38,798 bases of DNA. Origin: a virus (taxonomy: Duplodnaviria; Heunggongvirae; Uroviricota; Caudoviricetes). The stretch lies in IMG/VR virus record IMGVR_UViG_2703718804_000009. One strand, 5' to 3'. This document shows positions 2,841 through 37,844 of the stretch, piece after piece (position 1 is the first letter of the stretch; each line of letters starts with the position of its first letter). The position numbers and the translations under genes were made by a program. The notes beneath the pieces are model-generated. The model did not search any database. It was given only the letters and a program-made list of their open reading frames with translations, and was not told the DNA's origin.

Positions 2841-3009
2841 TATCGCGCCCTCAACAATGAGTTTTGTGATGCGGTGCCTGGTGCCTCCAGGTGACGTTAA
2901 CCAGTTAACAATTAACGCCGGATACAGAGAATCCACCCATAACACTGTTTTTGGTTTTAACTGTTCCGCGTGCGCTTAGCCGCATTCACCGCATCACAAA
3001 ATTCACTTT

Positions 3010-3067
3010 AAAAATGGCGGCAGAGCAGTCACGGAGTAAAACTGATACCGCCAAACGTCACCAGAAA
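3010..3067 (-). ncRNA. dicF: DicF small RNA (ftsZ-targeting sRNA of the dicB operon)
   Basis: Reverse complement of 3010-3067 reads TTTCTGGTGACGTTTGGCGGTATCAGTTTTACTCCGTGACTGCTCTGCCGCC followed by a U-run, matching the DicF sequence as I recall it; located between the ydfC-like gene and dicB. Confidence 0.75.
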
Positions 3068-3401
3068 ATTGATAACAGAGGGCGTTGCAGCGGGGTTGTC
3101 ACTTAAGCGTATGGTCAACCTGACAACCCGGTGTCCTCAACGGGGAAGGAATAACCCCGCCATACTTACCGCCGCGCCATTTCGCGGAGTGCCACAACCG
3201 GAAGCGCACGGTCGACGAAAATTTAACGACAGGCTATCTATGAACCAGCTACCTCGCCGTGCGCTTTCGCGTTATGGTCTGACTTTTCAGGGAAATATCC
3301 TTTCAGTAAACTGTCAGTGCCGGATGCTCACCCGTGTCCGGCGCACGTACTCCACCTCACCCGTGGAGAACTCCTTAATCACCAACCCTCAGGAGGGTGA
3401 A

Positions 3402-4802: not shown

Positions 4803-5519
4803 TCAGTCTAAGTATTGATGTATTTGTGAAACTTTACCTTTAATGGTGTAACCACCATTCAGTTCGATGGGTTTGTAAAGCGGATTCAGTGACAACAGAT
4901 AGATGTTTGGTCCGTCAATCGCAACTTTTTTTAGTGTTACGTTTGGCGTTCCTTCCAATTGGATTAAGATTATTTTTCCCACCAGTTCTCTAATGTTACT
5001 TGAGCATGGTGTGATCAGCACGGTAGATCCATCGGGGATGGTTGGGAGGCCGTTAGAGTTTGTCATCGCATCTCCCTCAACATGCAATAAAAAAGAGTTT
5101 TCAGCGGTTTTTGTCATGACATCAACCCAATTCTTAATGCCAGGAATCTCGGTTACTGGACAACTCATATCCCAATAACCAGCCTGTTCCCACGTTAAAA
5201 CGGGCAACCGGGCGATGTTGTCACTAATGTAAAGATACTGATTCAGACGCAGATCATCGGTTTTATCGTGACCGTCCTTTCCATAAAGAATCCATTCAGG
5301 AGATTTGGAAAGCAATTTTGACAGTAGATGCAAATTCTCACCGTCAGGTTTTGAAGAGCCATTTTCCCATTTTGTTACGGATACACGAGATATGCCGATT
5401 GCTTTCGCAACCTGCTGTTGGGTTAATCCAACGTCTTTTCGACGATTCCGAATACGTTCGCTGATAGTGTTTTTCATGTAACCAATGTTACTACCAAGTG
5501 ATGTTGCTATGGTTGACAT
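4803..5519 (-). CDS. cI: CI-type prophage repressor (HTH plus LexA/S24-like autocleavage domain)
   Basis: Track ORF 4803..5576; XRE-type HTH (LTQQQVAKAIGISRVSVTKWENG) and a C-terminal S24 peptidase-like region; divergent from the cro-like gene. Start is ambiguous (5519 MSTIATS or 5477 MKNTISER); the mRNA may be leaderless. Confidence 0.8.
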   Translation of the reverse strand: MSTIATSLGSNIGYMKNTISERIRNRRKDVGLTQQQVAKAIGISRVSVTKWENGSSKPDGENLHLLSKLLSKSPEWILYGKDGHDKTDDLRLNQYLYISDNIARLPVLTWEQAGYWDMSCPVTEIPGIKNWVDVMTKTAENSFLLHVEGDAMTNSNGLPTIPDGSTVLITPCSSNIRELVGKIILIQLEGTPNVTLKKVAIDGPNIYLLSLNPLYKPIELNGGYTIKGKVSQIHQYLD

Positions 5520-5541
5520 TGCTATGTAACTATTGTTACCC
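5513..5541 (+). promoter_or_regulatory. candidate pR/OR: consensus -35 TTGACA (5513-5518) followed by operator palindrome GTAAC-N4-GTTAC (5526-5539)
   Basis: Read directly from the sequence; the -10 element is weak or ambiguous; the region sits between divergent cI and cro-like genes. Confidence 0.4.
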
Positions 5542-5568
5542 TCCTGCTCGAAATAACAGGAGAGTTTT

Positions 5569-5784
5569 ATGTTCAAAGATGATGTTCTGCGCTATTTCAA
5601 AAAAAAGCGACTAGTAGCTGAGGCTCTTGGAATTTCACATGTGGCTGTTGTGCGGTGGAAAGCAGTTATTCCCAAACTTCGCGCAATGGAACTGGATGAA
5701 ATTACTAACGGTGAATTGAAATACAACCCAGAACTTTACAAGAAGCAGGATAGCACCTCGAACGAAGGAAAGAATGATTCATGA
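5569..5784 (+). CDS. Cro-like HTH regulator (DicC/YdaS family)
   Basis: Track ORF; 71 aa; divergent from cI; AGGAGAG SD; resembles DicC/YdaS-type Cro proteins (from memory). Confidence 0.65.
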   Translation: MFKDDVLRYFKKKRLVAEALGISHVAVVRWKAVIPKLRAMELDEITNGELKYNPELYKKQDSTSNEGKNDS

Positions 5785-12883: not shown

Positions 12884-13249
12884 ATGACTGAACGCATAGA
12901 ATTTGTTTTGCCTTACCCGCCGACGGTGAATACCTACTGGCGACGTCATGGCAATACGTATTTCATCTCGGAAGCCGGAAAGCGTTATCGCCGTGATGTG
13001 GCGCTAATTGTTCGCCAGCAGCGGTTGAAATTAAACCTGTCCGGAAGGCTGGCGATAAAGATTATTGCAGAGCCACCGGATAAGCGCCGTCGTGACCTGG
13101 ACAATATCCTGAAAGCACCACTGGATGCGCTGACGCATGCCGGACTACTCATAGACGACGAGCAGTTTGATGAAATCAATATTGTGCGCGGTCAGCTCGT
13201 TCCTGGTGGGCGGCTGGGGATAAAAATCACAGAACTGGAGTGCGCATGA
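12884..13249 (+). CDS. rusA: RusA Holliday-junction resolvase
   Basis: 121 aa; MTERIEFVLPYPPTVNTYWRR N-terminus typical of RusA; position before Q. Confidence 0.85.
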   Translation: MTERIEFVLPYPPTVNTYWRRHGNTYFISEAGKRYRRDVALIVRQQRLKLNLSGRLAIKIIAEPPDKRRRDLDNILKAPLDALTHAGLLIDDEQFDEINIVRGQLVPGGRLGIKITELECA

Positions 13250-13935
13250 ATAACCAGTATTTACAGTTTGTGCGTGAGCAGCTCATTATCGCCACCGCTG
13301 ATTTGAGTGGGGCAACAAAAGGTCAGCTTGAAGCCTGGCAGGAGAATGCCATGTTCGATACAGGGCGTTACAGGCGAAAAAAAATCCGGTACCGCGATGA
13401 AGTGACTGGAAAAATGATAACGCGGGATAATCCACCAATCCCGGGAAAACAATCACTGGCGAATGGCTCATCAATTGCCCTGGTCAGCCCGGTTGAGTTT
13501 TCGACATCATCATGGCGGCGGGCTTTGCTGTCTCTTGAAGAGCATCATAAAGCCTGGTTGTTGTGGTGTTACGGCGAGAGTATTTGTTGGGAATATCAGA
13601 TCGCGATAACACAGTGGGCGTGGAATGAATTTAATACTCAATCAGGTACCAGAAAAATTGCAGGGAAAACGCAGGAACGCCTGAAAAAATTAATCTGGCT
13701 GGCGGCGCAGGCAGTAAAAGCAGAACTTTTTGGTGGGGAAGGTTATGAATACCAGGAGCTGGCATTACTGGCGGGAGTGACAACTAAAAACTGGTCCAAA
13801 ACATTTACTCGTCACTGGGTTGCAATGAAACACATTTTTCAACGACTGGATAGTGAGGCTTTATTGTTTGTAATGAGAACACGTTCAAAACAAAAGGCGG
13901 CATTTTCAAAGCAAAGTGTTGCAAAAGTAGATTGA
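13246..13935 (+). CDS. late-gene antiterminator Q-like protein
   Basis: ATGA overlap with the rusA stop; immediately upstream of a candidate late promoter/terminator, the tRNAs and the lysis cassette. Confidence 0.6.
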   Translation: MNNQYLQFVREQLIIATADLSGATKGQLEAWQENAMFDTGRYRRKKIRYRDEVTGKMITRDNPPIPGKQSLANGSSIALVSPVEFSTSSWRRALLSLEEHHKAWLLWCYGESICWEYQIAITQWAWNEFNTQSGTRKIAGKTQERLKKLIWLAAQAVKAELFGGEGYEYQELALLAGVTTKNWSKTFTRHWVAMKHIFQRLDSEALLFVMRTRSKQKAAFSKQSVAKVD

Positions 13936-15381: not shown

Positions 15382-15915
15382 ATGAACGCAAAAATCAGAT
15401 ACGGCCTGTCGGCTGCCGTTCTGACACTGATTGCCGTCGGTGCGCCCGCGCCTGATATTCTCGACCAGTTTCTGGATGAAAAAGAGGGTAACCACACAAC
15501 GGCATACCGCGATGGGTCCGGCATCTGGACCATCTGTCGGGGTGCCACGATGGTGGATGGAAAACCCGTTTTTCCCGGTATGAAACTGTCGAAGGAAAAA
15601 TGCGACCAGGTCAACGCCATTGAGCGTGATAAGGCGCTGGCATGGGTGGAGCGCAATATTAAAGTACCACTGACCGAACCACAAAAAGCGGGTATCGCGT
15701 CATTTTGTCCCTATAACATTGGCCCCGGTAAGTGTTTTCCGTCGACGTTTTATAAGCGGCTGAATGCCGGTGATCGTAAGGGCGCATGCGAGGCGATTCG
15801 CTGGTGGATAAAAGATGGTGGGCGCGATTGCCGCATACGTTCAAATAACTGCTATGGACAGGTTATTCGTCGTGACCAGGAAAGCGCATTAGCCTGTTGG
15901 GGGATAGATCAGTGA
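15382..15915 (+). CDS. SAR endolysin (phage 21 R21-like lysozyme)
   Basis: 177 aa; weakly hydrophobic Gly/Ala-rich N-terminal signal-anchor-release segment; position after the pinholin. Confidence 0.8.
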
Positions 15916-16421: not shown

Positions 16422-16772
16422 ATGCCATCACGAATCCCACGCGCCTGCCGTAAGCGTGGATGTGCAGGTACAACCACAGACAGTTCTGGTTACTGCGATA
16501 AACATCGTGGCGAAGGATGGGTACAGCATCAACGCGGACTGAGCCGCCACCAGCGTGGCTATGGCTCGAAATGGGATGCCATACGTGCGCGCATACTGAA
16601 GCGTGATAATCATCTGTGTCAGAACTGCCTGCGCAATGGGAGAGCCGTTGAAGCCAGAACTGTGGACCACATCATTCCGAAAGCTCATGGTGGCACGGAT
16701 GCAGACAGTAACCTGCAGAGTCTGTGCTGGCCCTGTCATAAAGCAAAAACAGCGCGCGAACGCATCAATTGA
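16422..16772 (+). CDS. HNH endonuclease (packaging-associated)
   Basis: Cys-rich N-terminus plus an HNH motif (DHIIPKAHGGTDADSNLQSLCWPCH); directly upstream of terS. Confidence 0.8.
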   Translation: MPSRIPRACRKRGCAGTTTDSSGYCDKHRGEGWVQHQRGLSRHQRGYGSKWDAIRARILKRDNHLCQNCLRNGRAVEARTVDHIIPKAHGGTDADSNLQSLCWPCHKAKTARERIN

Positions 16773-23945: not shown

Positions 23946-24650
23946 ATGTCCTCTAATTTTGAGCGTTCGCAACTGACGAAAATTATGATTTCGTCTGCAC
24001 CGGTAACAGCAGAAACCCTGGATTCTGCCAGCTATCTTGGCCTGAGCTGTACAATCAAAGAGGTGCAGTTTACCGCAGGACAAAAGCAGGATATTGATGT
24101 CACCACGCTGTGTTCTGTTGAGCAGGAAAATATTAACGGTCTTGGTGCCGCGTCAGAGATTTCCATGTCAGGCAACTTTTACCTCAATGCTGCCCAGAAC
24201 GCGTTGCGCAGTGCCTATGACAATGACACCACGTATGGCTTTAAAGTTATTTTTCCGTCAGGAAACGGATTTACCTTTATGGCAGAGGTGCGTCAGCATA
24301 CCTGGTCTGCAGGAACCAATGGTGTTGTGGCTGCAACGTTTTCCCTGCGCCTGAAAGGTAAACCTGTGCTGGCGACAGAGCCGCTGAAAGTGAAGGTCGA
24401 TTTAAACAGCACGCTGCAGGTTTCTGCCGGAGCGAAACTCGAAATGGTGGTTGAGGCTGCCGGTGGTGTGCCGCCTTATTCTTATGTCTGGAAGAAAGGT
24501 AGTTCTCCTGTTTCCGGACAGACGGCGGCAACGTTCAGTAAGGCATTGGCAGTATCCGGTGATGCGGGCGCATATACCTGCGAGATTTCTGATTCAGCAA
24601 GCCCGGTTAACAAAGTGACCTCCACTTCCTGCACTGTAACCGTCAGTTAA
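23946..24650 (+). CDS. major tail protein with C-terminal Ig-like domain
   Basis: 234 aa; position before the G/GT chaperone pair; C-terminus is Ser/Thr/Val-rich and Ig-like. Confidence 0.8.
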   Translation: MSSNFERSQLTKIMISSAPVTAETLDSASYLGLSCTIKEVQFTAGQKQDIDVTTLCSVEQENINGLGAASEISMSGNFYLNAAQNALRSAYDNDTTYGFKVIFPSGNGFTFMAEVRQHTWSAGTNGVVAATFSLRLKGKPVLATEPLKVKVDLNSTLQVSAGAKLEMVVEAAGGVPPYSYVWKKGSSPVSGQTAATFSKALAVSGDAGAYTCEISDSASPVNKVTSTSCTVTVS

Positions 24651-24664
24651 TGAGGATGGGTGTG

Positions 24665-25036
24665 ATGACTAAAAATATCCGTAATCTGGCACTGGCAACG
24701 ATGTCGGGGTTTCGCCATAAAACTGTTGATGTGCCTGAATGGGAAGGGGCAACGGTTGTATTACGGGAACCTTCTGCAGAAGCCTGGTTGCGCTGGCAGG
24801 AGATCGTTAAAGCAAAAGATGATGAGACACCGTTATCCGTTGCGGAGCGCGCCCGCCGAAATCTGGAGGCAGATGTTGAACTGTTCATTGATGTTCTGTG
24901 TGATACCGGACTGCAACCTGTATTTTCAGAGGATGATCGTGAACAGGTGATTGCCGTGTATGGCCCGGTGCATGCGCGGCTTCTTCGGCAGTCTCTGGAA
25001 CTGATCAGTGATGCCGGCGAGGTTAAAAAAAAGTAG
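24665..25036 (+). CDS. tail assembly chaperone G
   Basis: Track ORF 24650..25036; the ATG at 24665 has a GAGGA SD; ends at the slippery heptamer. Confidence 0.7.
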   Translation: MTKNIRNLALATMSGFRHKTVDVPEWEGATVVLREPSAEAWLRWQEIVKAKDDETPLSVAERARRNLEADVELFIDVLCDTGLQPVFSEDDREQVIAVYGPVHARLLRQSLELISDAGEVKKK

Positions 25037-25338
25037 CGCTTCCGGGGATGCGTTTTCTGATGATGCTGGCACTCAGGATGGGGCGCACATTGTCAGAGTT
25101 ACGCCGGGAAATGTCCGCATCAGAAATTATGATGTGGGCAGAATTTGACAGGTTCAGCCCGCTGGGGGACGAACGGGCTGATATCCGGGCTGCCCAGATT
25201 GTTTCAGCTGTTTACGGCGCGCAGGGGGTCAAAGTGCCACTGAATGATGCGCTTCTTCAGTGGGAGAAGGAGCAGACAGAAGGCACCTCAGATCCATTTG
25301 CTGAGATTGAGAAGGCATTATTTGTTGCAGCTCGATGA
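24665..25338 (+). CDS. tail assembly chaperone GT, predicted -1 programmed frameshift product (slip at A_AAA_AAG, 25027-25033)
   Basis: The -1 frame is open from 25027 to the stop at 25336-25338 (track ORF 25048..25338 covers it); conserved G/GT arrangement upstream of the tape measure gene. Confidence 0.55.
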
Positions 25339-25395
25339 TCTTTTCACTTGACTGGATTATTATTCCCATTTTATTGAGAAAGTAAGGAAACATTG

Positions 25396-25737
25396 ATGGA
25401 ATTTTTACTTATTTCAATAGTTTTGGGACTAATTCCAGCTATTATTGCGAAAAGCAAAGGTCGCTCATTTTTAGGATGGTGGGTATATGGTGCGATGATC
25501 TTTATTGTTGCTCTGGTTCATTCGCTAGTAATCCAAAGAGATGAGAAGGCACATGAACAACAAATGGTAAGCAATGGCATGAAGAAATGCCCTTACTGTG
25601 CGGAGTTGATCAAAGAAGAGGCTATTAAATGTAAGCATTGCGGTAGTGCTTTAATTTGCAATGCAGATAGTTCCGTTTCACAAAAAACGGATGATGAATA
25701 TCTTCAGGAAGCAAGGCGTAAGGCCGGACTTCTTTAA
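25396..25737 (+). CDS. moron: small membrane protein with C-terminal zinc-ribbon (113 aa)
   Basis: Two predicted TM helices then CPYC-x11-CKHC; AT-rich; AAGGA SD; TTGACT -35-like element upstream and a terminator downstream. Confidence 0.6.
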   Translation: MEFLLISIVLGLIPAIIAKSKGRSFLGWWVYGAMIFIVALVHSLVIQRDEKAHEQQMVSNGMKKCPYCAELIKEEAIKCKHCGSALICNADSSVSQKTDDEYLQEARRKAGLL

Positions 25738-25748
25738 AGAATACAAAA

Positions 25749-25769
25749 ACCGCTTCGGCGGTTTTTTTT
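25749..25769 (+). terminator. intrinsic terminator after the moron
   Basis: CCGC-TTCG-GCGG hairpin followed by T8. Confidence 0.65.
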
Positions 25770-25779
25770 CGTCCGGAGA

Positions 25780-28700
25780 ATGAGTGTGGCGACATTACGT
25801 GAACTGATTATTAAAATCTCGGCAAACTCCCGGTCATTCCAGTCAGAGATCTCCCGGGCTTCGCGTATGGGGCAGGATTACTACCGCACCATGCAGAACG
25901 GAGGCCGACAGTCTGCTGCTGCATCCCGTGAAATGCGGCGTGCACTGGCAGAAGTGACGGATCAGATAAATACAGCTAAATCTTCGGCACTGAATATGGC
26001 GGGGGCATTTGCCGGGGCTTTTGCTACCGGTCATCTTATTTCTCTCGCCGATGAGTGGAATTCAGTAAATGCCCGTCTGAAGCAGGCATCACAGTCCAGT
26101 GATGATTTTCAGGCATCACAGCGTGAATTAATGGCGATCAGCCAGAGAACGGGGACGGCGTTTTCTGATAACGCCAGCCTTTTTGCCCGTTCTGCAGCTT
26201 CCATGCGGGAGTATGGCTACAGTTCTGAGGAGGTACTGAAAGTCACCGAGGCGATCTCCACTGGCCTGAAATTATCCGGTGCCAGTACAGCAGAAGCCAG
26301 TTCGGTGATCACGCAGTTCAGTCAGGCTCTGGCGCAGGGAGTGCTGCGTGGTGAAGAGTTTAACTCGGTGAATGAGAACGGCGATCGTGTTATTCGTGCT
26401 CTGGCTGCGGGAATGGGAGTTGCCCGTAAGGATCTGAAGGCCATGGCGGATAACGGAAAGTTGACCGCCGATAAGGTTGTTCCTGCACTGATTAGTCAGC
26501 TTGGGGCATTACGTGATGAATATGCGGCAATGCCTGATACGGTTTCATCCTCTGCAACCAAAGTTGAAAACGCCTTTATGGCCTGGGTTGGTGGTGCGAA
26601 CGAGGCAAGCGGAGTGACGAAGACGCTCTCCGGTGTGCTGAATGGTATTGCAGGCAATATTGACACCGTGGCAACCGCTGCCGGTGCTCTGGTTGCCGTC
26701 GGGGTAGCCCGATATTTTGGCAATATGGCGTCGTCTGCTGGATCTGCAACTGCCGGATTAATTACTGCAGCCAGAAACGAAGTGGCTCTTGCTGAAGCGC
26801 AACTTCGGGGGACACAGATAGCAACCGCCAGGGCGCGTGCGGCGGTTTATCGTGCGCAACAGGCGGTTGTTGCTGCTCGCGGTACCGAAAGGCAGGCCGC
26901 AGCAGAAGCGAAGCTGACAGCTGCCCAGGCGTCACTTACCCGTAATATTGCGGCCAGAACAGCGGCACAGACAACGCTGAATACTGTCACGTCAGTGGGG
27001 AGTCGTCTGTTAAGTGGTGCGCTGGGGTTGGTTGGTGGTGTGCCGGGACTCGTCATGCTGGGGGCGACGGCCTGGTACACGATGTATCAGAATCAGGAGC
27101 AGGCCAGAGAATCTGCACGCCAGTATGCCGCAACAATCGACGAAATTCGCCAGAAAACGTCGGCAATGTCGCTTCCTGAAGCGTCAGATAATGAGGAAAA
27201 GACGCGGCAGGCACTTGATGAGCAAAACAGGTTAATTGACGAGCAGAAAAGTAAGATTAAATCCTTACAGGAAAAAATTGCTGGCTATCAGTATGTGCTG
27301 GCAAACCCGGGCTGGACAACCGATAACGGTTTTATGATTAACCACATGACGTCGGTAAAAACTGTCACAGAAGGGCTTGCAGAAGCAACAAATCAACTGG
27401 CAGTTGAACAGTCCCGTCTCACACAAATGCAGGGCAAAGCGCAATCCATTCAGGATGTGCTTGCCGGGCTGGAGGAGCGACGGGTGGCGTTGATCCGTCA
27501 ACAGGCCGCGGAACAAAACAAAGCGTATCAGTCCCTGTTGATCATGAATGGGCAGCATACCGAGTTTAATCGCCTTCTCGGGCTCGGTAATGAATTACTT
27601 CAGCAGCGACAGGGGCTGGTGAATGTACCGTTACGTCTGCCACAGGCAACCCTGGATGATAAACAGCAGGACGCACTGAAAAAAAGCCAGCAGGCGCTGG
27701 AGTTGTCCCGTCTCAAAGGCGAGGCCAGAGAACGCGTGCGTCTCGGATATGCTGCTGATGATCTTGGCTTTGTCGGCGACAAATATCAGACTGCACGCCA
27801 GGAATTCATCAGTACAGGGATGGAGACCTGGCGCAATAATGAGGCGAATAAGCCGAAGAGAAAAGGGCCAAAATCGGAAGCTGAAAAAGCAGAAGATGTT
27901 TACAACAGGCTGATTAAACAGCAGAAAGAACAGCTTGCACTGGCAGGACAGAATACCGAACTGGCGAAAATGAAATACCAGGTCAGCCAGGGTGAGCTGA
28001 CCACCCTTTCGTCTGCACAGAAGCAACTTTTGCTACAGAATGCGGCGCTGATTGACCAGAAAAATATCCGGCAACAGCTTGCTGCGTATGAGAGCAGTCT
28101 GGCGGACAGTAATGCCAGTGCCCGGGCATCTGACGAAGCGCAGTTGTTGGGATATGGTGAAGGCTCACGGATGCGTGAACGACTCCAGGAAATGTGGAGT
28201 ATCCGGCAGGCGTTTGAGCAGAAAAATAACGAGCTGCTGAGACAGTATCAGGCCGGAGAAATTGAAGAAGCCCTGTGGAAACAGGAGAAAGAACTGAATA
28301 AAAAATATCTGGAAGAGCGTCTCAGCGATCAGCAGAATTATTATGCAAAGGCCGATGCTTTACGTAATAACTGGAATGCCGGACTCCAGGAGGGACTGAC
28401 CAACTGGGCAGACAGTGCCACCGATTATGCTTCACAGGCGGCAGATGCTGTCGTTTCCACGATGGACGGGCTGGTATCAAATATTTCCGATGCACTGGCC
28501 GGGAATGTTGTGGACTGGAGGAACTGGGGGAGTTCAGTTCTCCGGGAAGTTTCAAAAATTCTGATGAATGCAGCCATTGTTAACGGACTGAAATCACTCT
28601 CCGGTGCCGGAGGGTGGCTTGGTACGGTCGGCGGATGGATTTCGGGGGCAGTGGCAAACGCAAAAGGTGGTGTTTACACATCGGCAAATCTGAGTGCTTA

Positions 28701-29016
28701 CAGTAACACTATTGTGGATACACCGACGTATTTTGCTTTTGCGAAAGGTGCCGGGTTGATGGGCGAGGCCGGGCCTGAAGCAATCATGCCACTGACACGG
28801 GCAGCGGACGGCTCTCTTGGGGTCAGGGCCATTGGAAATGTGAATGGTGGCGGTGGATTTGTTTATTCTCCCGTGTATCACATCAGCATTCAGAATCAAG
28901 GGAGCAATGGCGAGATAGATGCGCGCTCAGCCAGGGGACTGGTGGATCTGATCGACAGCAGGGTTGTGTCAATTATGCAGTCATCGCGTCGGGATGGAGG
29001 ATTGTACAGTGCCTGA
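25780..29016 (+). CDS. tail tape measure protein
   Basis: 1078 aa; Ala/Gln-rich coiled-coil central region; position between GT and M. Confidence 0.9.
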   Translation: MSVATLRELIIKISANSRSFQSEISRASRMGQDYYRTMQNGGRQSAAASREMRRALAEVTDQINTAKSSALNMAGAFAGAFATGHLISLADEWNSVNARLKQASQSSDDFQASQRELMAISQRTGTAFSDNASLFARSAASMREYGYSSEEVLKVTEAISTGLKLSGASTAEASSVITQFSQALAQGVLRGEEFNSVNENGDRVIRALAAGMGVARKDLKAMADNGKLTADKVVPALISQLGALRDEYAAMPDTVSSSATKVENAFMAWVGGANEASGVTKTLSGVLNGIAGNIDTVATAAGALVAVGVARYFGNMASSAGSATAGLITAARNEVALAEAQLRGTQIATARARAAVYRAQQAVVAARGTERQAAAEAKLTAAQASLTRNIAARTAAQTTLNTVTSVGSRLLSGALGLVGGVPGLVMLGATAWYTMYQNQEQARESARQYAATIDEIRQKTSAMSLPEASDNEEKTRQALDEQNRLIDEQKSKIKSLQEKIAGYQYVLANPGWTTDNGFMINHMTSVKTVTEGLAEATNQLAVEQSRLTQMQGKAQSIQDVLAGLEERRVALIRQQAAEQNKAYQSLLIMNGQHTEFNRLLGLGNELLQQRQGLVNVPLRLPQATLDDKQQDALKKSQQALELSRLKGEARERVRLGYAADDLGFVGDKYQTARQEFISTGMETWRNNEANKPKRKGPKSEAEKAEDVYNRLIKQQKEQLALAGQNTELAKMKYQVSQGELTTLSSAQKQLLLQNAALIDQKNIRQQLAAYESSLADSNASARASDEAQLLGYGEGSRMRERLQEMWSIRQAFEQKNNELLRQYQAGEIEEALWKQEKELNKKYLEERLSDQQNYYAKADALRNNWNAGLQEGLTNWADSATDYASQAADAVVSTMDGLVSNISDALAGNVVDWRNWGSSVLREVSKILMNAAIVNGLKSLSGAGGWLGTVGGWISGAVANAKGGVYTSANLSAYSNTIVDTPTYFAFAKGAGLMGEAGPEAIMPLTRAADGSLGVRAIGNVNGGGGFVYSPVYHISIQNQGSNGEIDARSARGLVDLIDSRVVSIMQSSRRDGGLYSA

Positions 29017-34891: not shown

Positions 34892-35491
34892 ATGCGTAAA
34901 TTATGTGCTGTTATTTTGTCCGCAGTAGTCTGGCAGGTCGCCGCTGCTACGCCAGCGAGTGCAGCAGAACATCAGTCCACGCTGAGCGCGGGGTATCTTC
35001 ATGCCTTGACGAACGTTCCCGGCAGCGATGCTCTGAACGGGATTAACGTGAAATACCGTTATGAGTTTACGGACATACTGGGGATGGTGACGTCATTCAG
35101 CTATGCAGGAGACAAGAATCGCCAGCTTACCCGTTACAGCCATACCCGCTGGCATGAGGATTCTGTGCGTAACCGCTGGTTCAGCGTGATGGCGGGGCCG
35201 TCTGTGCGCGTGAATGAATGGTTCAGCGCGTATGTGATGGCGGGGGGGGCTTACAGCCGTGTATCGACTTTTTCCGGGGATTATCTCCGCGTAACTGACA
35301 ACAAGGGGAAAACGCACGATGTGCTGACCGGAAGTGATGACGGTCGCCACAGCAACATGTCTCTGGCGTGGGGGGCTGGCGTGCAGTTTAACCCGACCGA
35401 ATCCGTGGCCATTGATGTCGCTTATGAAGGTTCCGGCAGTGGCGACTGGCGCACTGACGGTTTCATCGTGGGTGTCGGTTATAAATTCTGA
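34892..35491 (+). CDS. lom: Lom outer-membrane protein (Ail/Lom family beta-barrel), moron
   Basis: Signal peptide; alternating beta-strand pattern; C-terminal GVGYKF; position between J and stf as in lambda. Confidence 0.85.
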
Positions 35492-35544: not shown

Positions 35545-35555
35545 GTGGGGTGAAT

Positions 35556-37844
35556 ATGGCAGTAAAGATTTCAGGTGTACTGAAAGACGGCACAGGAAAA
35601 CCGGTACAGAACTGCACAATCCAGCTGAAAGCAAAACGTAACAGCACCACGGTGGTGGTGAACACGCTGGCCTCAGAAAATCCGGATGAAGCCGGGCGTT
35701 ACAGTATGGACGTTGAGTACGGTCAGTACAGCGTTATTCTGTTGGTGGAAGGGTTCCCGCCGTCACATGCCGGGACCATCACCGTGTATGAAGATTCTCA
35801 ACCCGGTACGCTGAATGATTTTCTCGGTGCCATGACGGAGGATGATGCCCGTCCGGAGGCTCTGCGCCGTTTTGAACTGATGGTGGAAGAGGTGGCGCGT
35901 AACGCGTCCGCAGTGGCACAGAACACGGCAGCCGCGAAGAAGTCAGCCAGCGATGCCAGCACATCAGCCCGTGAGGCGGCAACCCATGCGACTGATGCTG
36001 CAGACTCAGCACGCGCAGCCAGAACGTCAGCCGGACAGGCCGCGACGTCGGCTCAGGAGGCTTTTTCCAGCGCAGGAACGGCATCAGCAAAAGCCTCTGA
36101 GGCATCAAAAAGTGCTGCCGCTGCAGAGTCCTCAAAAAGCGCGGCGGCCACGAGTGCCGGTGCGGCGAAAATGTCAGAAACGAATGCCGCAGCGTCAGAA
36201 CAATCAGCCGCCACTTCTGCATCCACCGCGACCACGAAAGCGTCAGAAGCAGCCACTTCAGCACGGGATGCGGCGGCTTCAAAAGAGGCGGCAAAATCAT
36301 CAGAAACGAGCGCAGCCTCGAGCGCCAGTAGTGCAGCCTCCTCGGCAACGGCGGCAGGAAATTCCGCGAAGGCGGCAAAAACGTCCGAGACGAACGCAAG
36401 GTCTTCTGAAACAGCGGCAGCACAGAACGCCTCAGCTGCAGCAGATTCAGAAACTGCTGCAGAGACGTCCGCCAACGCTGCGGCTACGAAGGCGACAGAG
36501 GCGGCAGACAGTGCGGCGGAGGCTGAGCGGAGCAAAAGTACAGCAGAGTCCGCGGCAACCCGAGCCGAGACAGCGGCAAAGCGGGCAGAGGATATCGCAT
36601 CCGCCGTGGGGCTTGAGGATGCGAGTACAACGAAAAAGGGAATAGTACAGCTCAGCAGTGCTGCCAACAGCACATCTGAAGCATTTGCTGCAACCCCAAA
36701 AGCCGTCAAAATCGTCATGGACGAGACGAAAACCAAAGCGCCTCTGGACAGCCCGGCGTTCACCGGTACGCCAACCACACCAACCCCACCGGATGATGCG
36801 GTCGGGCTGGAGATGGCGAACGCGGCGTTTGTCCGCAAACTGCTCGCTGCACTGGTTGGCTCATCTCCGGAAGCCCTTGACACACTGAATGAGCTGGCAG
36901 CGGCGCTGGGCAATGACCCGAATTTTGCAACGACGGTCACTAACGCGCTTGCAGGCAAACAGCCACTTAGTGATGTTTTAACCGCCATCAGCAGGTTAAA
37001 CGCTCAGGCAGATAATCTTCTGTACTTTAATTCGGACGGGAACGCATCGCTGACACGGTTGACGCCAGAAGCCCGTTCACTGCTGGCACAGGCCACACCG
37101 GAAGATATGCGCAGAGTGCTTGAGCTGGAAAGGTCAGACACTGTGGTGCCACAGAATAATATTTATGACCGCAGCGAAGGCGTGGTGGCCATTCCGGGGA
37201 CGCTGGGATATGGAGGATATTACCGACATGAAGACAAAGTCATTTTCAGGGGAGAAAACGGCCCTGCTGATTTTATTTCCTGGGTATCCACTACACCACC
37301 GGGCCGGTATGCGGTAGGAGACGGTACTTCATATAGCGCGCCTCAGATTATTGACAAGGAAAATCGTCTGGAAGGGATTGTTGAAATTATTATTCCGGAT
37401 ACAGCCTCCTCGTCTTCGCAATCGCGTGCAGACAAGCTCATTATTTTCATGAGTAAGAAGGGAGAAATGTTTATCAACTGGCTGAAATGGACCAGTGCCG
37501 GAGCCGGTCTGGCTGGCTGGGGAAATCTCAGCGCGAAGGGATTACGCTCTGCTGACTTCTGGGGAAACCCGGGGATTGACGGAGTCACACTGGCAGCAAT
37601 ATCTGTCGCTGACCTTGCCTCACATAAGCGTGGGGACAGGATATCAGGCGAAAAGTTACGGCATGTATCGCTTATGTTTGAGAACAATGGTAATCCGTGC
37701 GCAGCGGTATCGGTTTACAACGTATCGATGATGTACGGGTTATTGCCGGGGTCCTATTTTATTCTGAATGGCTCCAGTCAGAGTCTGAACTGTGGGAATA
37801 AAGCCAATGCCTGGTGGATTTGCCTGGTGATGAGGGCAGAATAA
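35556..37844 (+). CDS. stf: side tail fiber protein (lambda Stf-like N-terminus, Ala/Ser-rich central repeats, divergent C-terminal domain)
   Basis: MAVKISGVLKDGTGKPVQNCTIQLKA matches the lambda Stf N-terminus as recalled. Confidence 0.85.
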   Translation: MAVKISGVLKDGTGKPVQNCTIQLKAKRNSTTVVVNTLASENPDEAGRYSMDVEYGQYSVILLVEGFPPSHAGTITVYEDSQPGTLNDFLGAMTEDDARPEALRRFELMVEEVARNASAVAQNTAAAKKSASDASTSAREAATHATDAADSARAARTSAGQAATSAQEAFSSAGTASAKASEASKSAAAAESSKSAAATSAGAAKMSETNAAASEQSAATSASTATTKASEAATSARDAAASKEAAKSSETSAASSASSAASSATAAGNSAKAAKTSETNARSSETAAAQNASAAADSETAAETSANAAATKATEAADSAAEAERSKSTAESAATRAETAAKRAEDIASAVGLEDASTTKKGIVQLSSAANSTSEAFAATPKAVKIVMDETKTKAPLDSPAFTGTPTTPTPPDDAVGLEMANAAFVRKLLAALVGSSPEALDTLNELAAALGNDPNFATTVTNALAGKQPLSDVLTAISRLNAQADNLLYFNSDGNASLTRLTPEARSLLAQATPEDMRRVLELERSDTVVPQNNIYDRSEGVVAIPGTLGYGGYYRHEDKVIFRGENGPADFISWVSTTPPGRYAVGDGTSYSAPQIIDKENRLEGIVEIIIPDTASSSSQSRADKLIIFMSKKGEMFINWLKWTSAGAGLAGWGNLSAKGLRSADFWGNPGIDGVTLAAISVADLASHKRGDRISGEKLRHVSLMFENNGNPCAAVSVYNVSMMYGLLPGSYFILNGSSQSLNCGNKANAWWICLVMRAE

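What the first reader, a model, noticed from the sequence alone, without database searches (positions are those of the whole stretch)
25340..25770. Self-contained moron between GT and the tape measure gene: membrane protein with C-terminal zinc ribbon
An AT-rich 113-aa ORF with two predicted TM helices and a CPYC-x11-CKHC zinc ribbon has a -35-like TTGACT upstream, a good SD and a strong terminator. That terminator lies only 11 nt before the tape measure start. Insertion into the normally tightly coupled G/GT-to-tape-measure junction is unusual; such a protein could act in superinfection exclusion or defence.
Basis: partly seen in the sequence, partly recalled or inferred. Interest (0 to 1): 0.65.

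Follow-up and report, generated by a model that had tools for sequence, protein, structure and literature searches.

The report
Membrane zinc-ribbon moron before tape measure
This is a small add-on gene cassette with its own promoter and terminator, sitting in a lambdoid E. coli prophage at the classic HK97 "gene 15" site between the tail chaperone and tape-measure genes; it encodes a widespread but uncharacterised membrane protein that most likely blocks infection by other phages.

Summary
ORF 25396-25737 encodes 113 aa. It is AT-rich (39% GC against 52% in the flanks). It has a two-helix membrane hairpin and a C4 zinc ribbon above the Pfam cut-off. A good SD precedes it and a hairpin-U8 terminator follows it.

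It is a genuine accessory cassette. Of 5,426 complete E. coli genomes, 44 carry it and 843 carry the same tail module without it.

The site is not unusual. It is the slot of HK97 gene 15, the element for which the word "moron" was coined, and gp15 is an inner-membrane superinfection-exclusion protein.

All 45 distinct upstream regions from relatives keep a -35-like hexamer, over the stop codon of gene T, exactly 17 nt before a -10-like hexamer.

The terminator is not private to the cassette, because the "empty" alleles keep it as an orphan.

The protein belongs to phrog_8436, a very large family of unknown function, and is under purifying selection (dN/dS 0.09). Pseudomonas phage homologues in the same slot fuse a T4 Imm-type hairpin (PF14373) to the same ribbon.

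Best reading: a prophage-expressed inner-membrane protein that blocks phage DNA entry. The cassette is shown; the function is inferred. It is a new member of a known kind and of moderate interest.

The parts
24650..25036 (+). Tail assembly chaperone G (RefSeq start is at 24665). The -1 slippery run A8-G lies at 25025-25033.
   Evidence: Pfam Phage_TAC_1, E 2.8e-58. Sequence read. RefSeq annotation.
25048..25338 (+). T part of the G-T frameshift product, in the -1 frame relative to G. Its last ~12 codons (from about 25302) belong to the variable segment that travels with the cassette.
   Evidence: Pfam Phage_tail_T, E 1.6e-20. Alignment with the empty allele diverges after 25301.
25335..25340 (+). 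-35-like hexamer ATGATC, overlapping the TGA stop of T (25336-25338).
   Evidence: It aligns with GTGACA, GTGACT, TTGATA or ATGACT in 45 of 45 distinct upstream regions, always 17 nt before the -10-like hexamer.
25348..25353 (+). It lies in the spacer of the conserved promoter-like element and is probably not the -35.
   Evidence: It is not conserved (TTTACT and ATAACT in relatives). No -10 hexamer lies 16-18 nt downstream. The consensus scan found no promoter-like site upstream of the ORF.
25358..25363 (+). -10-like hexamer TATTAT (5 of 6 matches), 32 nt before the ATG.
   Evidence: It aligns with TAGGAT (41), TATTAT (3) or TATGAT (1) across 45 distinct upstream regions.
25384..25388 (+). Shine-Dalgarno sequence AAGGA, 7 nt before the ATG.
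   Evidence: Sequence read. An AAGG or GGGG block is conserved in relatives.
25396..25737 (+). Cargo gene, 113 aa (WP_062878029.1). Membrane hairpin at aa 2-45, short helix at 50-59, C4 zinc ribbon at 62-84, disordered linker, C-terminal helix at 99-109.
25745..25769 (+). Intrinsic terminator: A5, CCGC-UUCG-GCGG, T8. It is also kept as an orphan in alleles that lack the gene.
   Evidence: Stems covary in 38 distinct relatives. Orphan copies are shown.
25786..29016 (+). Tail tape measure protein. The probable start is GTG 25786, preceded by GGAGA; the ORF also opens at ATG 25780.
   Evidence: Pfam TMP_3, Phage_HK97_TLTM and Tape_meas_lam_C. RefSeq start. HK97 gp16 begins MATLREL.

Best explanation
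The element is a moron cassette made of a sigma-70-type promoter, an SD, a 113-aa ORF and an intrinsic terminator. It lies in the G/T | tape-measure slot of an HK97/lambda-type tail operon, the same slot as HK97 gene 15.

**How it is probably expressed**
- In the lysogen, the weak promoter that overlaps the stop codon of T would transcribe only this gene. The terminator would stop transcription from reaching the tape-measure gene.
- During lytic growth, Q-modified RNA polymerase reads through the terminator. The prophage encodes a Q antiterminator.

**What the product probably does**
- It inserts into the inner membrane as a helical hairpin carrying invariant P14, W28, W29, Y31 and H42, followed by a C4 zinc ribbon.
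- It most likely acts as a superinfection-exclusion protein. It would stop incoming siphophages at the inner-membrane step of genome delivery, where the tape measure and ejection proteins form the channel. HK97 gp15 and T4 Imm work this way.

**Shown and inferred**
- Shown: cassette anatomy, accessory status, slot identity, family membership and purifying selection.
- Inferred: promoter activity in the lysogen, inner-membrane location and topology, and the exclusion function.
For: **Slot**
- HK97 has gene 15 ('moron product') plus a terminator between gp13/14 and the tape-measure gene.
- PMC3594210 states that this was the first element called a moron. It also states that gp15 is expressed from the prophage, inserts into the inner membrane and blocks genome injection in a way that depends on the phage tail.
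- HK022 has a tight 19-nt junction with no hairpin.

**Accessory status**
- 44 E. coli genomes carry the cassette and 843 have the empty junction.
- All 11 matching phage records lack it, with 97-98% identical flanks.
- Among the 80 closest IMG/VR relatives, 9 are filled and 71 are empty.
- A decayed copy exists in strain 2014C-3075.

**Own transcription signals**
- All 45 distinct upstream regions have a -35-like and a -10-like hexamer at exactly 17 nt. Strength is traded between the two: ATGATC pairs with TATTAT or TATGAT, GTGACA with TAGGAT, and TTGATA with TGT-TAGGAT.
- All 38 distinct downstream regions show a hairpin followed by a T-run. Thirty-two pass an exact-stem rule, and six need one G-U pair on reading the sequence. 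The stems covary.
- The Q antiterminator is present in the window.

**A real, selected gene**
- dN/dS is 0.09.
- 18 columns are invariant across 95 family members.
- GC of 0.36-0.42 persists against flanks of 0.50-0.56.

**Link to exclusion proteins**
- Pseudomonas phage YMC11/02/R656 gp065 sits in the same slot. It combines Imm_superinfect PF14373 (E 1.6e-18) with Zn_ribbon_3 and matches the window protein at BLASTP E 9e-14.
- T4 Imm is a PF14373 member.
- That fusion architecture is common.
- A hairpin-only profile comparison gives probability 51% and E 1.6e-4, against 0.5% for reversed controls.
- In phage D14C the slot holds a BamE-like lipoprotein plus a homologue of this protein.
Against: - No experiment or transcriptome was available. 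The exclusion function rests on position, architecture and distant similarity.
- The Pfam Imm_superinfect model does not hit the window protein at E <= 0.1. The profile-profile link is only about 50% probability.
- There is no similarity to HK97 gp15 and no PADLOC hit.
- The promoter in this particular allele scores only 8 of 12 consensus positions and fell below the threshold of the consensus scan.
- Many family members lie outside prophages, often with a conserved partner gene that the window lacks. The ancestral role may therefore not be phage exclusion.
- Topology is unresolved. Charge counts favour a cytoplasmic loop, which would place a C4 ribbon in the oxidising periplasm. That would be unusual.
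- Deep synteny with the tape-measure gene could instead mean a lytic-cycle role.
Confidence: 0.5

Rival explanations
1. An anti-phage defence that is not an entry block. In this reading the ribbon senses a phage component, the hairpin oligomerises and disturbs the membrane (abortive infection), or the protein interferes with the tail assembly of invaders.
For: - The protein is small, with two transmembrane helices that carry invariant polar and aromatic residues.
- It is linked to the tape-measure gene in several phage lineages.
- The prophage morons Tab and Tai target tape-measure or tail assembly (PMC10884400; PMC11364771, listed).
- In distant genomes the neighbours include restriction-modification genes, an Ltp lipoprotein and mobile-element genes.
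Against: - There is no PADLOC match.
- Tab is not encoded in this slot and was described as having no sequence similarity to other proteins. It was not compared with the window protein here.
- Nothing in the sequence points to a sensor or to an effector.
- The closest characterised analogues by position (gp15) and by architecture (Imm) act at entry.
Confidence: 0.15
2. A host-fitness or envelope function unrelated to phages, such as a response to stress, metals or membrane homeostasis. The gene would be carried as lysogenic-conversion cargo, as lom and bor are.
For: - The family is spread across many bacterial phyla and is often outside prophages.
- It is frequently paired with a conserved gene for a ~105-aa protein with a predicted N-terminal membrane anchor.
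- The same prophage also carries lom.
- HK97 gp15 itself derives from the host YebO family.
Against: - In the phage copies examined, Enterobacterales and Pseudomonas phage copies lie inside the tail gene cluster, except Klebsiella phage KP12, whose neighbours are unannotated.
- The phage-borne subgroup lacks the partner and has its own conserved C-terminal tail.
- Imm-type fusions occupy the same slot.
Confidence: 0.13
3. A lytic-cycle accessory expressed with the late operon. Possible roles include protecting the infected cell from secondary injection, modulating membrane events around the tape measure or lysis, or tuning the expression of downstream tail genes.
For: - The gene is on the same strand as the late genes and is read through under Q.
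- It has diverged along with G, T and the tape-measure gene over a long period.
- It lies directly upstream of the tape-measure gene in unrelated phage groups.
- T4 Imm acts during lytic infection.
Against: - The conserved promoter and terminator bracket only this gene. That design is expected for expression in the repressed prophage.
- The gene is absent from 843 E. coli genomes and from all 11 deposited phage records that share this tail module.
Confidence: 0.12
4. An essential structural or assembly tail gene, or alternatively a chance ORF with no function.
For: For the structural reading: the gene is syntenically conserved within tail modules. For the chance-ORF reading there is no supporting evidence.
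Against: - It is dispensable in near-identical phages.
- A membrane hairpin is not expected in a virion tail protein.
- Against a chance ORF: dN/dS is 0.09, there are at least 1,420 relatives, and it belongs to a full-length PHROG family.
Confidence: 0.03

Closest known systems
HK97 gene 15 moron (gp15), a superinfection-exclusion protein (Juhala et al. 2000; Cumby et al. 2012; commentary PMC3594210)
   Same: - Same slot, G/T | tape measure, in a homologous HK97-type tail operon.
- Same cassette layout: SD, small ORF, then an intrinsic terminator 10-20 nt before the tape-measure start.
- A small hydrophobic membrane protein that is dispensable for phage growth.

   Different: - No sequence similarity.
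- gp15 is 62 aa and YebO-like, and has no zinc ribbon. The window protein is 113 aa, with a two-helix hairpin and a C4 ribbon.
- The function of the window protein is untested.
T4 Imm / Pfam PF14373 (Imm_superinfect), in particular the Imm_superinfect + Zn_ribbon_3 fusions such as Pseudomonas phage YMC11/02/R656 gp065
   Same: - A two-helix membrane hairpin with a (L/I)P-A-x-I-A motif in helix 1 and G-W in helix 2, followed by a near-identical ribbon (CPYCAE..K..A.KC..CG).
- gp065 lies in the same T | tape-measure slot, and a terminator follows it.

   Different: - The Pfam model does not detect the window protein.
- The inter-helix loop is about 10 residues shorter.
- Hairpin-only hhalign probability is 51%.
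- T4 Imm has no ribbon.
- The fusions themselves are annotated by homology only.
phrog_8436 / RefSeq 'zinc ribbon domain-containing protein' (WP_062878029.1)
   Same: It is a full-length member (E 2.9e-49), and the exact protein is annotated in RefSeq.
   Different: No function is assigned to the family. The slot conservation, the promoter and terminator, and the link to Imm-type proteins are not recorded in the annotations seen here.
Other late-operon morons of lambdoid phages (lambda lom and bor, phi80 and N15 cor)
   Same: Accessory genes embedded in or next to tail genes that alter the cell envelope of the lysogen. lom is present in this same prophage at 34892-35491.
   Different: The proteins and slots differ. 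Lom is an outer-membrane barrel and Cor acts on the FhuA receptor, whereas the window protein is predicted to lie in the inner membrane.

Membership tests
Moron (as defined by Juhala/Hendrix) | Extra DNA between two genes that are adjacent in related phages | tested here: met
   The T-to-tape-measure distance is ~445 nt here. It is 43-53 nt in 71 of the 80 closest relatives, 19 nt in HK022, and empty in 843 E. coli genomes.
Moron (as defined by Juhala/Hendrix) | Base composition different from the surrounding genes | tested here: met
   Gene GC is 0.39 against flank GC of 0.52. It is the only such dip in the structural block.
Moron (as defined by Juhala/Hendrix) | Its own terminator | tested here: met
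   A hairpin plus U8 at 25745-25769. Covarying stems appear in 38 distinct relatives. The caveat is that the hairpin also persists in empty alleles.
Moron (as defined by Juhala/Hendrix) | Its own promoter | tested here: inconclusive
   A conserved -35/-10 pair at fixed 17-nt spacing is present in 45 of 45 relatives. This allele matches only 8 of 12 consensus positions and missed the threshold of the consensus scan. Promoter activity was not measured.
Moron (as defined by Juhala/Hendrix) | Expression from the repressed prophage | not testable with these tools
   This needs RNA-seq or 5' RACE on a lysogen.
Pfam Zn_ribbon_3 (PF13248) | HMM score above the gathering threshold, with four Cys in a CxxC-x(n)-CxxC arrangement | tested here: met
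   32.9 bits against a 27-bit cut-off, at aa 62-84. All four Cys are invariant in 95 sequences.
phrog_8436 | Full-length HMM match | tested here: met
   E 2.9e-49, covering aa 1-111 of the protein and positions 1-108 of the 110-position profile.
Pfam Imm_superinfect (PF14373; the T4 Imm family) | HMM match to the two-helix domain | tested here: not met
   No hit at E <= 0.1. For comparison, T4 Imm scores 7.4e-16 and gp065 scores 1.6e-18.
Pfam Imm_superinfect (PF14373; the T4 Imm family) | Remote homology of the hairpin, tested by profile-profile comparison | tested here: inconclusive
   hhalign probability 50.7% and E 1.6e-4 over 41 columns, with a 10-residue loop gap. Reversed controls give 0.5-0.6%. 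Against the single T4 Imm sequence the probability is 5.6%.
HK97 gp15 / YebO family | Sequence similarity to gp15 | tested here: not met
   Best BLASTP E is 0.30 over 11 residues.
Superinfection-exclusion proteins (a functional class) | Reduces infection or DNA entry by other phages when expressed | not testable with these tools
   This needs plating, adsorption and DNA-entry assays.
Known anti-phage defence systems (PADLOC-DB v2) | Match to a defence-protein model | tested here: not met
   Only two weak matches, driven by the ribbon, at E 0.0011 and 0.011.

The most novel reading that the evidence does not exclude
The hairpin-plus-ribbon family (phrog_8436 and its relatives across bacterial phyla) could be a new and very widespread class of envelope-level phage-exclusion proteins, distantly related to T4 Imm. 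In phages it would be kept next to the tape-measure gene because it acts on the genome-delivery step that depends on the tape measure. In bacterial genomes it would work as a two-gene module with the conserved ~105-aa membrane-anchored partner.
Probability: 0.25. Interest if true: 0.65.

Novelty: new member of a known kind. Interest (0 to 1): 0.4.

Why it matters
**If the inferred function is right**
- The classic HK97 gene-15 slot would carry at least two unrelated inner-membrane exclusion proteins as alternative cargo.
- This cargo belongs to a family with more than a thousand relatives across phyla and no assigned function.
- One cheap experiment, expressing a 113-aa protein and plating a phage panel, could give a function to a large set of "zinc ribbon domain-containing" and "superinfection immunity" annotations.
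- It could also show how exclusion proteins target tape-measure-mediated DNA entry.

**If it is not an exclusion protein**
- The finding is a routine moron of unknown function.

**For genome annotation, regardless of function**
- The conserved promoter-like element overlapping the T stop codon is a reusable marker of this slot.
- So is the orphan terminator found in 843 E. coli genomes.

Tried and rejected
- **Promoter and terminator consensus scan.** It found no promoter upstream of the ORF. It reported the terminator on the minus strand only, because its rules do not fit a stem of 4 G-C pairs extended by A-U pairs. Comparative alignment was used instead.
Rejected: it is not conserved and has no -10 partner.
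- **Homology to HK97 gp15.** Rejected.
- **PADLOC and NCBIfam.** No meaningful hit.
- **PDB sequence search.** Only generic ribbons such as ribosomal protein L32, at E about 0.07.
- **Foldseek against viral models.** Only unnamed "zinc-ribbon containing" proteins with TM-scores below 0.3. The afdb50 library was not available.
- **Rfam.** Nothing above gathering scores; the weak matches are driven by the terminator.
- **Structural tail gene.** Rejected on dispensability.
- **Recent insertion.** Rejected for the lineage as a whole. The gene has diverged in step with G, T and the tape-measure gene down to 40-70% identity.
- **Literature.** A search for "superinfection immunity protein" together with "zinc ribbon" and "prophage" returned nothing. 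Cumby et al. 2012 is not held in the library.
- **Slot survey by T-protein relatives in IMG/VR.** It returned only close E. coli relatives. It therefore gave occupancy counts but no diversity of cargo.

Full report
**1. The observation**

The window is a lambdoid prophage. Its landmarks are:
- a CI-like repressor at 4803-5576 on the minus strand
- a Q antiterminator at 13240-13935
- a lysozyme at 15382-15915
- an HNH endonuclease at 16422-16772
- a lambda-like tail module
- Lom at 34892-35491 and a tail fibre at 35550-37844 (all)

Around the finding, the genes are:
- the tail tube gene at 23946-24650
- chaperone G at 24650-25036 (Phage_TAC_1, E 2.8e-58)
- T at 25048-25338 (Phage_tail_T, E 1.6e-20), in the -1 frame after an A8-G slippery run at 25025-25033
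- the tape-measure gene to 29016

Between T and the tape-measure gene lies ORF 25396-25737 (113 aa).
- GC falls to 0.355-0.39 there, against 0.52-0.55 on both sides. No other part of the structural block dips this way.
- The protein has two hydrophobic helices (2-21 and 25-45 in an AlphaFold2 model with mean pLDDT 75).
- It has a ribbon, C65-x2-C68-x10-C79-x2-C82, which scores above the Pfam Zn_ribbon_3 cut-off.
- AAGGA lies 7 nt before the ATG.
- A5-CCGC-UUCG-GCGG-T8 (25745-25769) follows the stop codon.
- The T-run ends 10 nt before ATG 25780. RefSeq and the HK97 homologue place the tape-measure start at GTG 25786.

So the description is accurate. The exceptions are small: the spacer is ten residues rather than eleven, and the distance to the next gene is 10 or 16 nt rather than 11.

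**2. It is a real gene and a real accessory cassette**

The protein matches phrog_8436 over its full length (E 2.9e-49). It has at least 1,420 relatives at E <= 1e-3. Across 95 of them, 18 columns are invariant: G11, P14, A18, K21, G22, F25, W28, W29, Y31, F36, A39, H42, the four Cys, E70 and A76. Against an 84%-identical copy, dN is 0.076 and dS is 0.83, giving a ratio of 0.09.

Presence and absence were counted in three collections:
- **E. coli complete genomes.** Of 5,426 genomes, 902 hold the flanks and only 44 hold the gene. 843 hold a junction in which T is followed after 10 nt by the same hairpin and then the tape-measure gene.
- **Phage records.** All 11 matching phage records have the empty form, with 97-98% identical flanks.
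- **IMG/VR.** Among the 80 closest relatives, 9 are filled and 71 are empty, and every empty allele keeps the hairpin.

A decayed copy with indels and a lost first CxxC exists in strain 2014C-3075.

The variable segment runs from about 25302, inside the last 12 codons of T, to about 25747, just before the hairpin stem. HK022 has a tight 19-nt junction with no hairpin. The orphan hairpin in empty alleles is therefore best read as the scar of a lost cassette. That reading is an inference.

**3. The slot is the classic one**

HK97 carries gene 15 ('moron product') and a putative terminator at exactly this place. It lies between gp13/14 and the tape-measure gene gp16, whose first residues, MATLRELIIKISAN, match those of the window gene.

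PMC3594210 states three things:
- The word moron was first used for this element.
- gp15 is expressed from the prophage, inserts into the inner membrane, and blocks genome injection by HK97 and HK75 in a way that depends on the phage tail region.

The window protein shows no similarity to gp15. The finding is thus a different cargo in the same slot.

**4. Synteny**

Homologues occupy the T | tape-measure slot in several groups:
- Cronobacter
- Enterobacter, Leclercia and Superficieibacter
- all 80 best IMG/VR hits

This holds even where G, T and the tape-measure protein have diverged to 40-70% identity and the ribbon protein to 60-69%. The cassette is therefore an old resident that diverges along with the tail module. 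It stays AT-rich throughout, at 0.36-0.42 GC against 0.50-0.56 in the flanks.

More distant homologues are in the same slot in Pseudomonas phages YMC11/02/R656 and vB_PaeS-D14C. In Klebsiella phage ST846-OXA48phi9.2 one lies directly upstream of a long tail protein.

Other copies sit in other tail-operon slots:
- between L and K in Edwardsiella
- after K in Xenorhabdus
- between K and I in Yersinia
- after the tape-measure gene in Serratia

Outside Enterobacterales the core (aa 1-84, 45-60% identity) occurs in many phyla. There the neighbours are not phage structural genes. They are transposases, HTH regulators, restriction-modification genes, Bro-N, an integrase and an Ltp lipoprotein.

**5. 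Transcription signals**

I aligned the 45 distinct sequences upstream of slot-resident copies. The intergenic DNA is otherwise free to vary, yet every one has three features:
- A -10-like hexamer: TAGGAT in 41, TATTAT in 3, TATGAT in 1.
- A -35-like hexamer exactly 17 nt upstream: GTGACA, GTGACT, TTGATA, ATGACT or ATGATC. It always contains the TGA stop of T.
- The end of the -10 hexamer lying 27-33 nt before the ATG.

Strength is traded between the two hexamers:
- ATGATC (3 of 6) goes with TATTAT or TATGAT (5 of 6).
- GTGACA (5 of 6) goes with TAGGAT (4 of 6).
- The TTGATA group has TGT before TAGGAT, which is an extended -10.

In the window the elements are at 25335-25340 and 25358-25363.

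Downstream, all 38 distinct intergenic regions have a hairpin followed by a T-run shortly before the tape-measure start. Thirty-two pass an exact-stem rule and six need one G-U pair, which I judged by reading the sequences. The stems covary (CCGC/GCGG, CCCCGC/GCGGGG, GCCCCGC/GCGGGGC, with various loops). The Pseudomonas phage has the same arrangement.

This is good comparative evidence for an independent transcription unit. Promoter activity itself was not measured.

**6. What the protein resembles**
- YMC11/02/R656 gp065, annotated 'immunity to superinfection', combines Pfam Imm_superinfect (E 1.6e-18) with Zn_ribbon_3. It aligns with the window protein over the hairpin and the ribbon (33% identity, E 9e-14).
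- T4 Imm, the DNA-injection blocker (PMC11436027), is a member of that Pfam family.
- The Imm-plus-ribbon fusion is common.
- The Pfam model does not detect the window protein.
- A profile-profile comparison of the hairpins alone gives 50.7% probability (E 1.6e-4, 41 columns, a 10-residue loop gap). Reversed controls give 0.5-0.6%.

I treat the relationship as suggestive rather than established.

Charge counts bear on topology:
- N-tail: 0.08 K+R and 1.0 D+E
- loop: 2.2 K+R and 0 D+E
- after helix 2: 2.9 K+R and 3.8 D+E

These favour a cytoplasmic loop with both ends outside. That would place the ribbon in the periplasm, and this needs an experimental test.

The PDB, viral-fold, PADLOC, NCBIfam and Rfam searches added nothing.

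**7. Interpretation**

What is shown: a moron cassette in the HK97 gene-15 slot, dispensable, under purifying selection, with conserved promoter-like and terminator elements, encoding a hairpin-plus-ribbon protein of a large uncharacterised family.

What is inferred: the gene is expressed in the lysogen and the terminator insulates the tape-measure gene. Q-modified polymerase reads through in lytic growth, which follows from established lambda biology and the Q gene found. The product sits in the inner membrane and blocks DNA entry of incoming phages, as gp15 and Imm do.

I put about 0.5 on the exclusion mechanism. The rest is split among another type of defence, a host-fitness role and a lytic-cycle role. 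A structural role is excluded by dispensability.

**8. Novelty and score**

The kind of element is textbook, and the exact protein is already in RefSeq as a 'zinc ribbon domain-containing protein'. What is new:
- recognising this cargo as an alternative occupant of the gene-15 slot
- the conserved promoter overlapping the T stop codon
- the orphan terminator in empty alleles
- the architectural link to Imm-type fusions

It is a new member of a known kind, with interest 0.4. The main value is that a very large uncharacterised family becomes testable by a simple experiment.

Noticed in passing
L026, L031, L033, L037, L039, L041-L043, L051, L055, L057, L059-L064, L069, L074, L080, L086, L089, L091, L092 and others (e.g. 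L039:4684-4998): In 29 of 80 genome loci, from alpha-, beta- and gamma-proteobacteria, Campylobacterales, Holophagales, Atribacteria and Pectinatus, the ribbon gene is directly adjacent to a conserved gene of ~105 aa. That gene encodes an N-terminal membrane anchor followed by the motif 'FVIQPIGALPEGKTLV..R.NKT.FIDSADAMCERE.GGVSLLCRG...RLPYSE.LY..ST.GK.Y'. It is usually upstream and abutting the ribbon gene, and is downstream in two loci. It has no Pfam or PADLOC match. It is absent from the window and from all T | tape-measure copies. This looks like a mobile two-gene membrane module of unknown function.
   Followed up: partly
L001:1837-1885, and 843 E. coli genomes (query L001:1790-1900): Alleles without the cargo gene keep the terminator hairpin AACCGCTTCGGCGG-T7-9, 10 nt after the T stop and just before the tape-measure SD. 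It may be a scar of cassette loss, or it may have a role of its own, such as attenuating expression of the tape-measure and distal tail genes. HK022 has no such hairpin.
   Followed up: partly
window 34892-35491: A second classic moron lies in the same prophage. It is an Ail/Lom outer-membrane protein (PF06316, E 1.5e-114) between J and the tail fibre gene.
   Followed up: partly
L176:2512-2928 and 2965-3276 (Pseudomonas phage vB_PaeS-D14C): Here the T | tape-measure slot holds two cargo genes: a BamE-like lipoprotein (lipobox ...LSGC) and a ribbon-protein homologue with a different membrane hairpin. The GenBank record annotates neither. It annotates a 58-aa ORF on the opposite strand instead.
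   Followed up: partly
window 25678-25734 (aa 95-113): The C-terminal tail, T-D-D/E-E-Y-L-x-E-A-R-R/K-K-A-G-L-L, is predicted helical at residues 99-109. It is conserved only in the slot-resident enterobacterial subgroup (28 of 95 family members). On its own it matches the C-termini of two other PHROGs of unknown function (phrog_5031 at E 0.0016 and phrog_19323 at E 0.011). It may be a shared interaction motif.
   Followed up: no
window 25780-25790: The tape-measure ORF opens at ATG 25780. However, GGAGA spacing, the RefSeq annotation and the HK97 gp16 N-terminus (MATLREL) all point to GTG 25786 as the true start.
   Followed up: yes
L144:5694-6674; L005:5334-7289 (also L125): Some related prophages are defective at this locus. 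In L144 an IS5-like DDE transposase gene is inserted at the 5' end of the tape-measure gene. In L005 and L125 the tape-measure gene is truncated, and in L005 the called product also carries IMS/UmuC-like domains.
   Followed up: no
L002:1840-2280 (E. coli 2014C-3075): This is a decayed copy of the cargo gene, 91% identical, with 1-nt and 6-nt deletions and a lost first CxxC. RefSeq does not annotate it. It shows that the gene can be lost by erosion as well as by clean deletion.
   Followed up: partly
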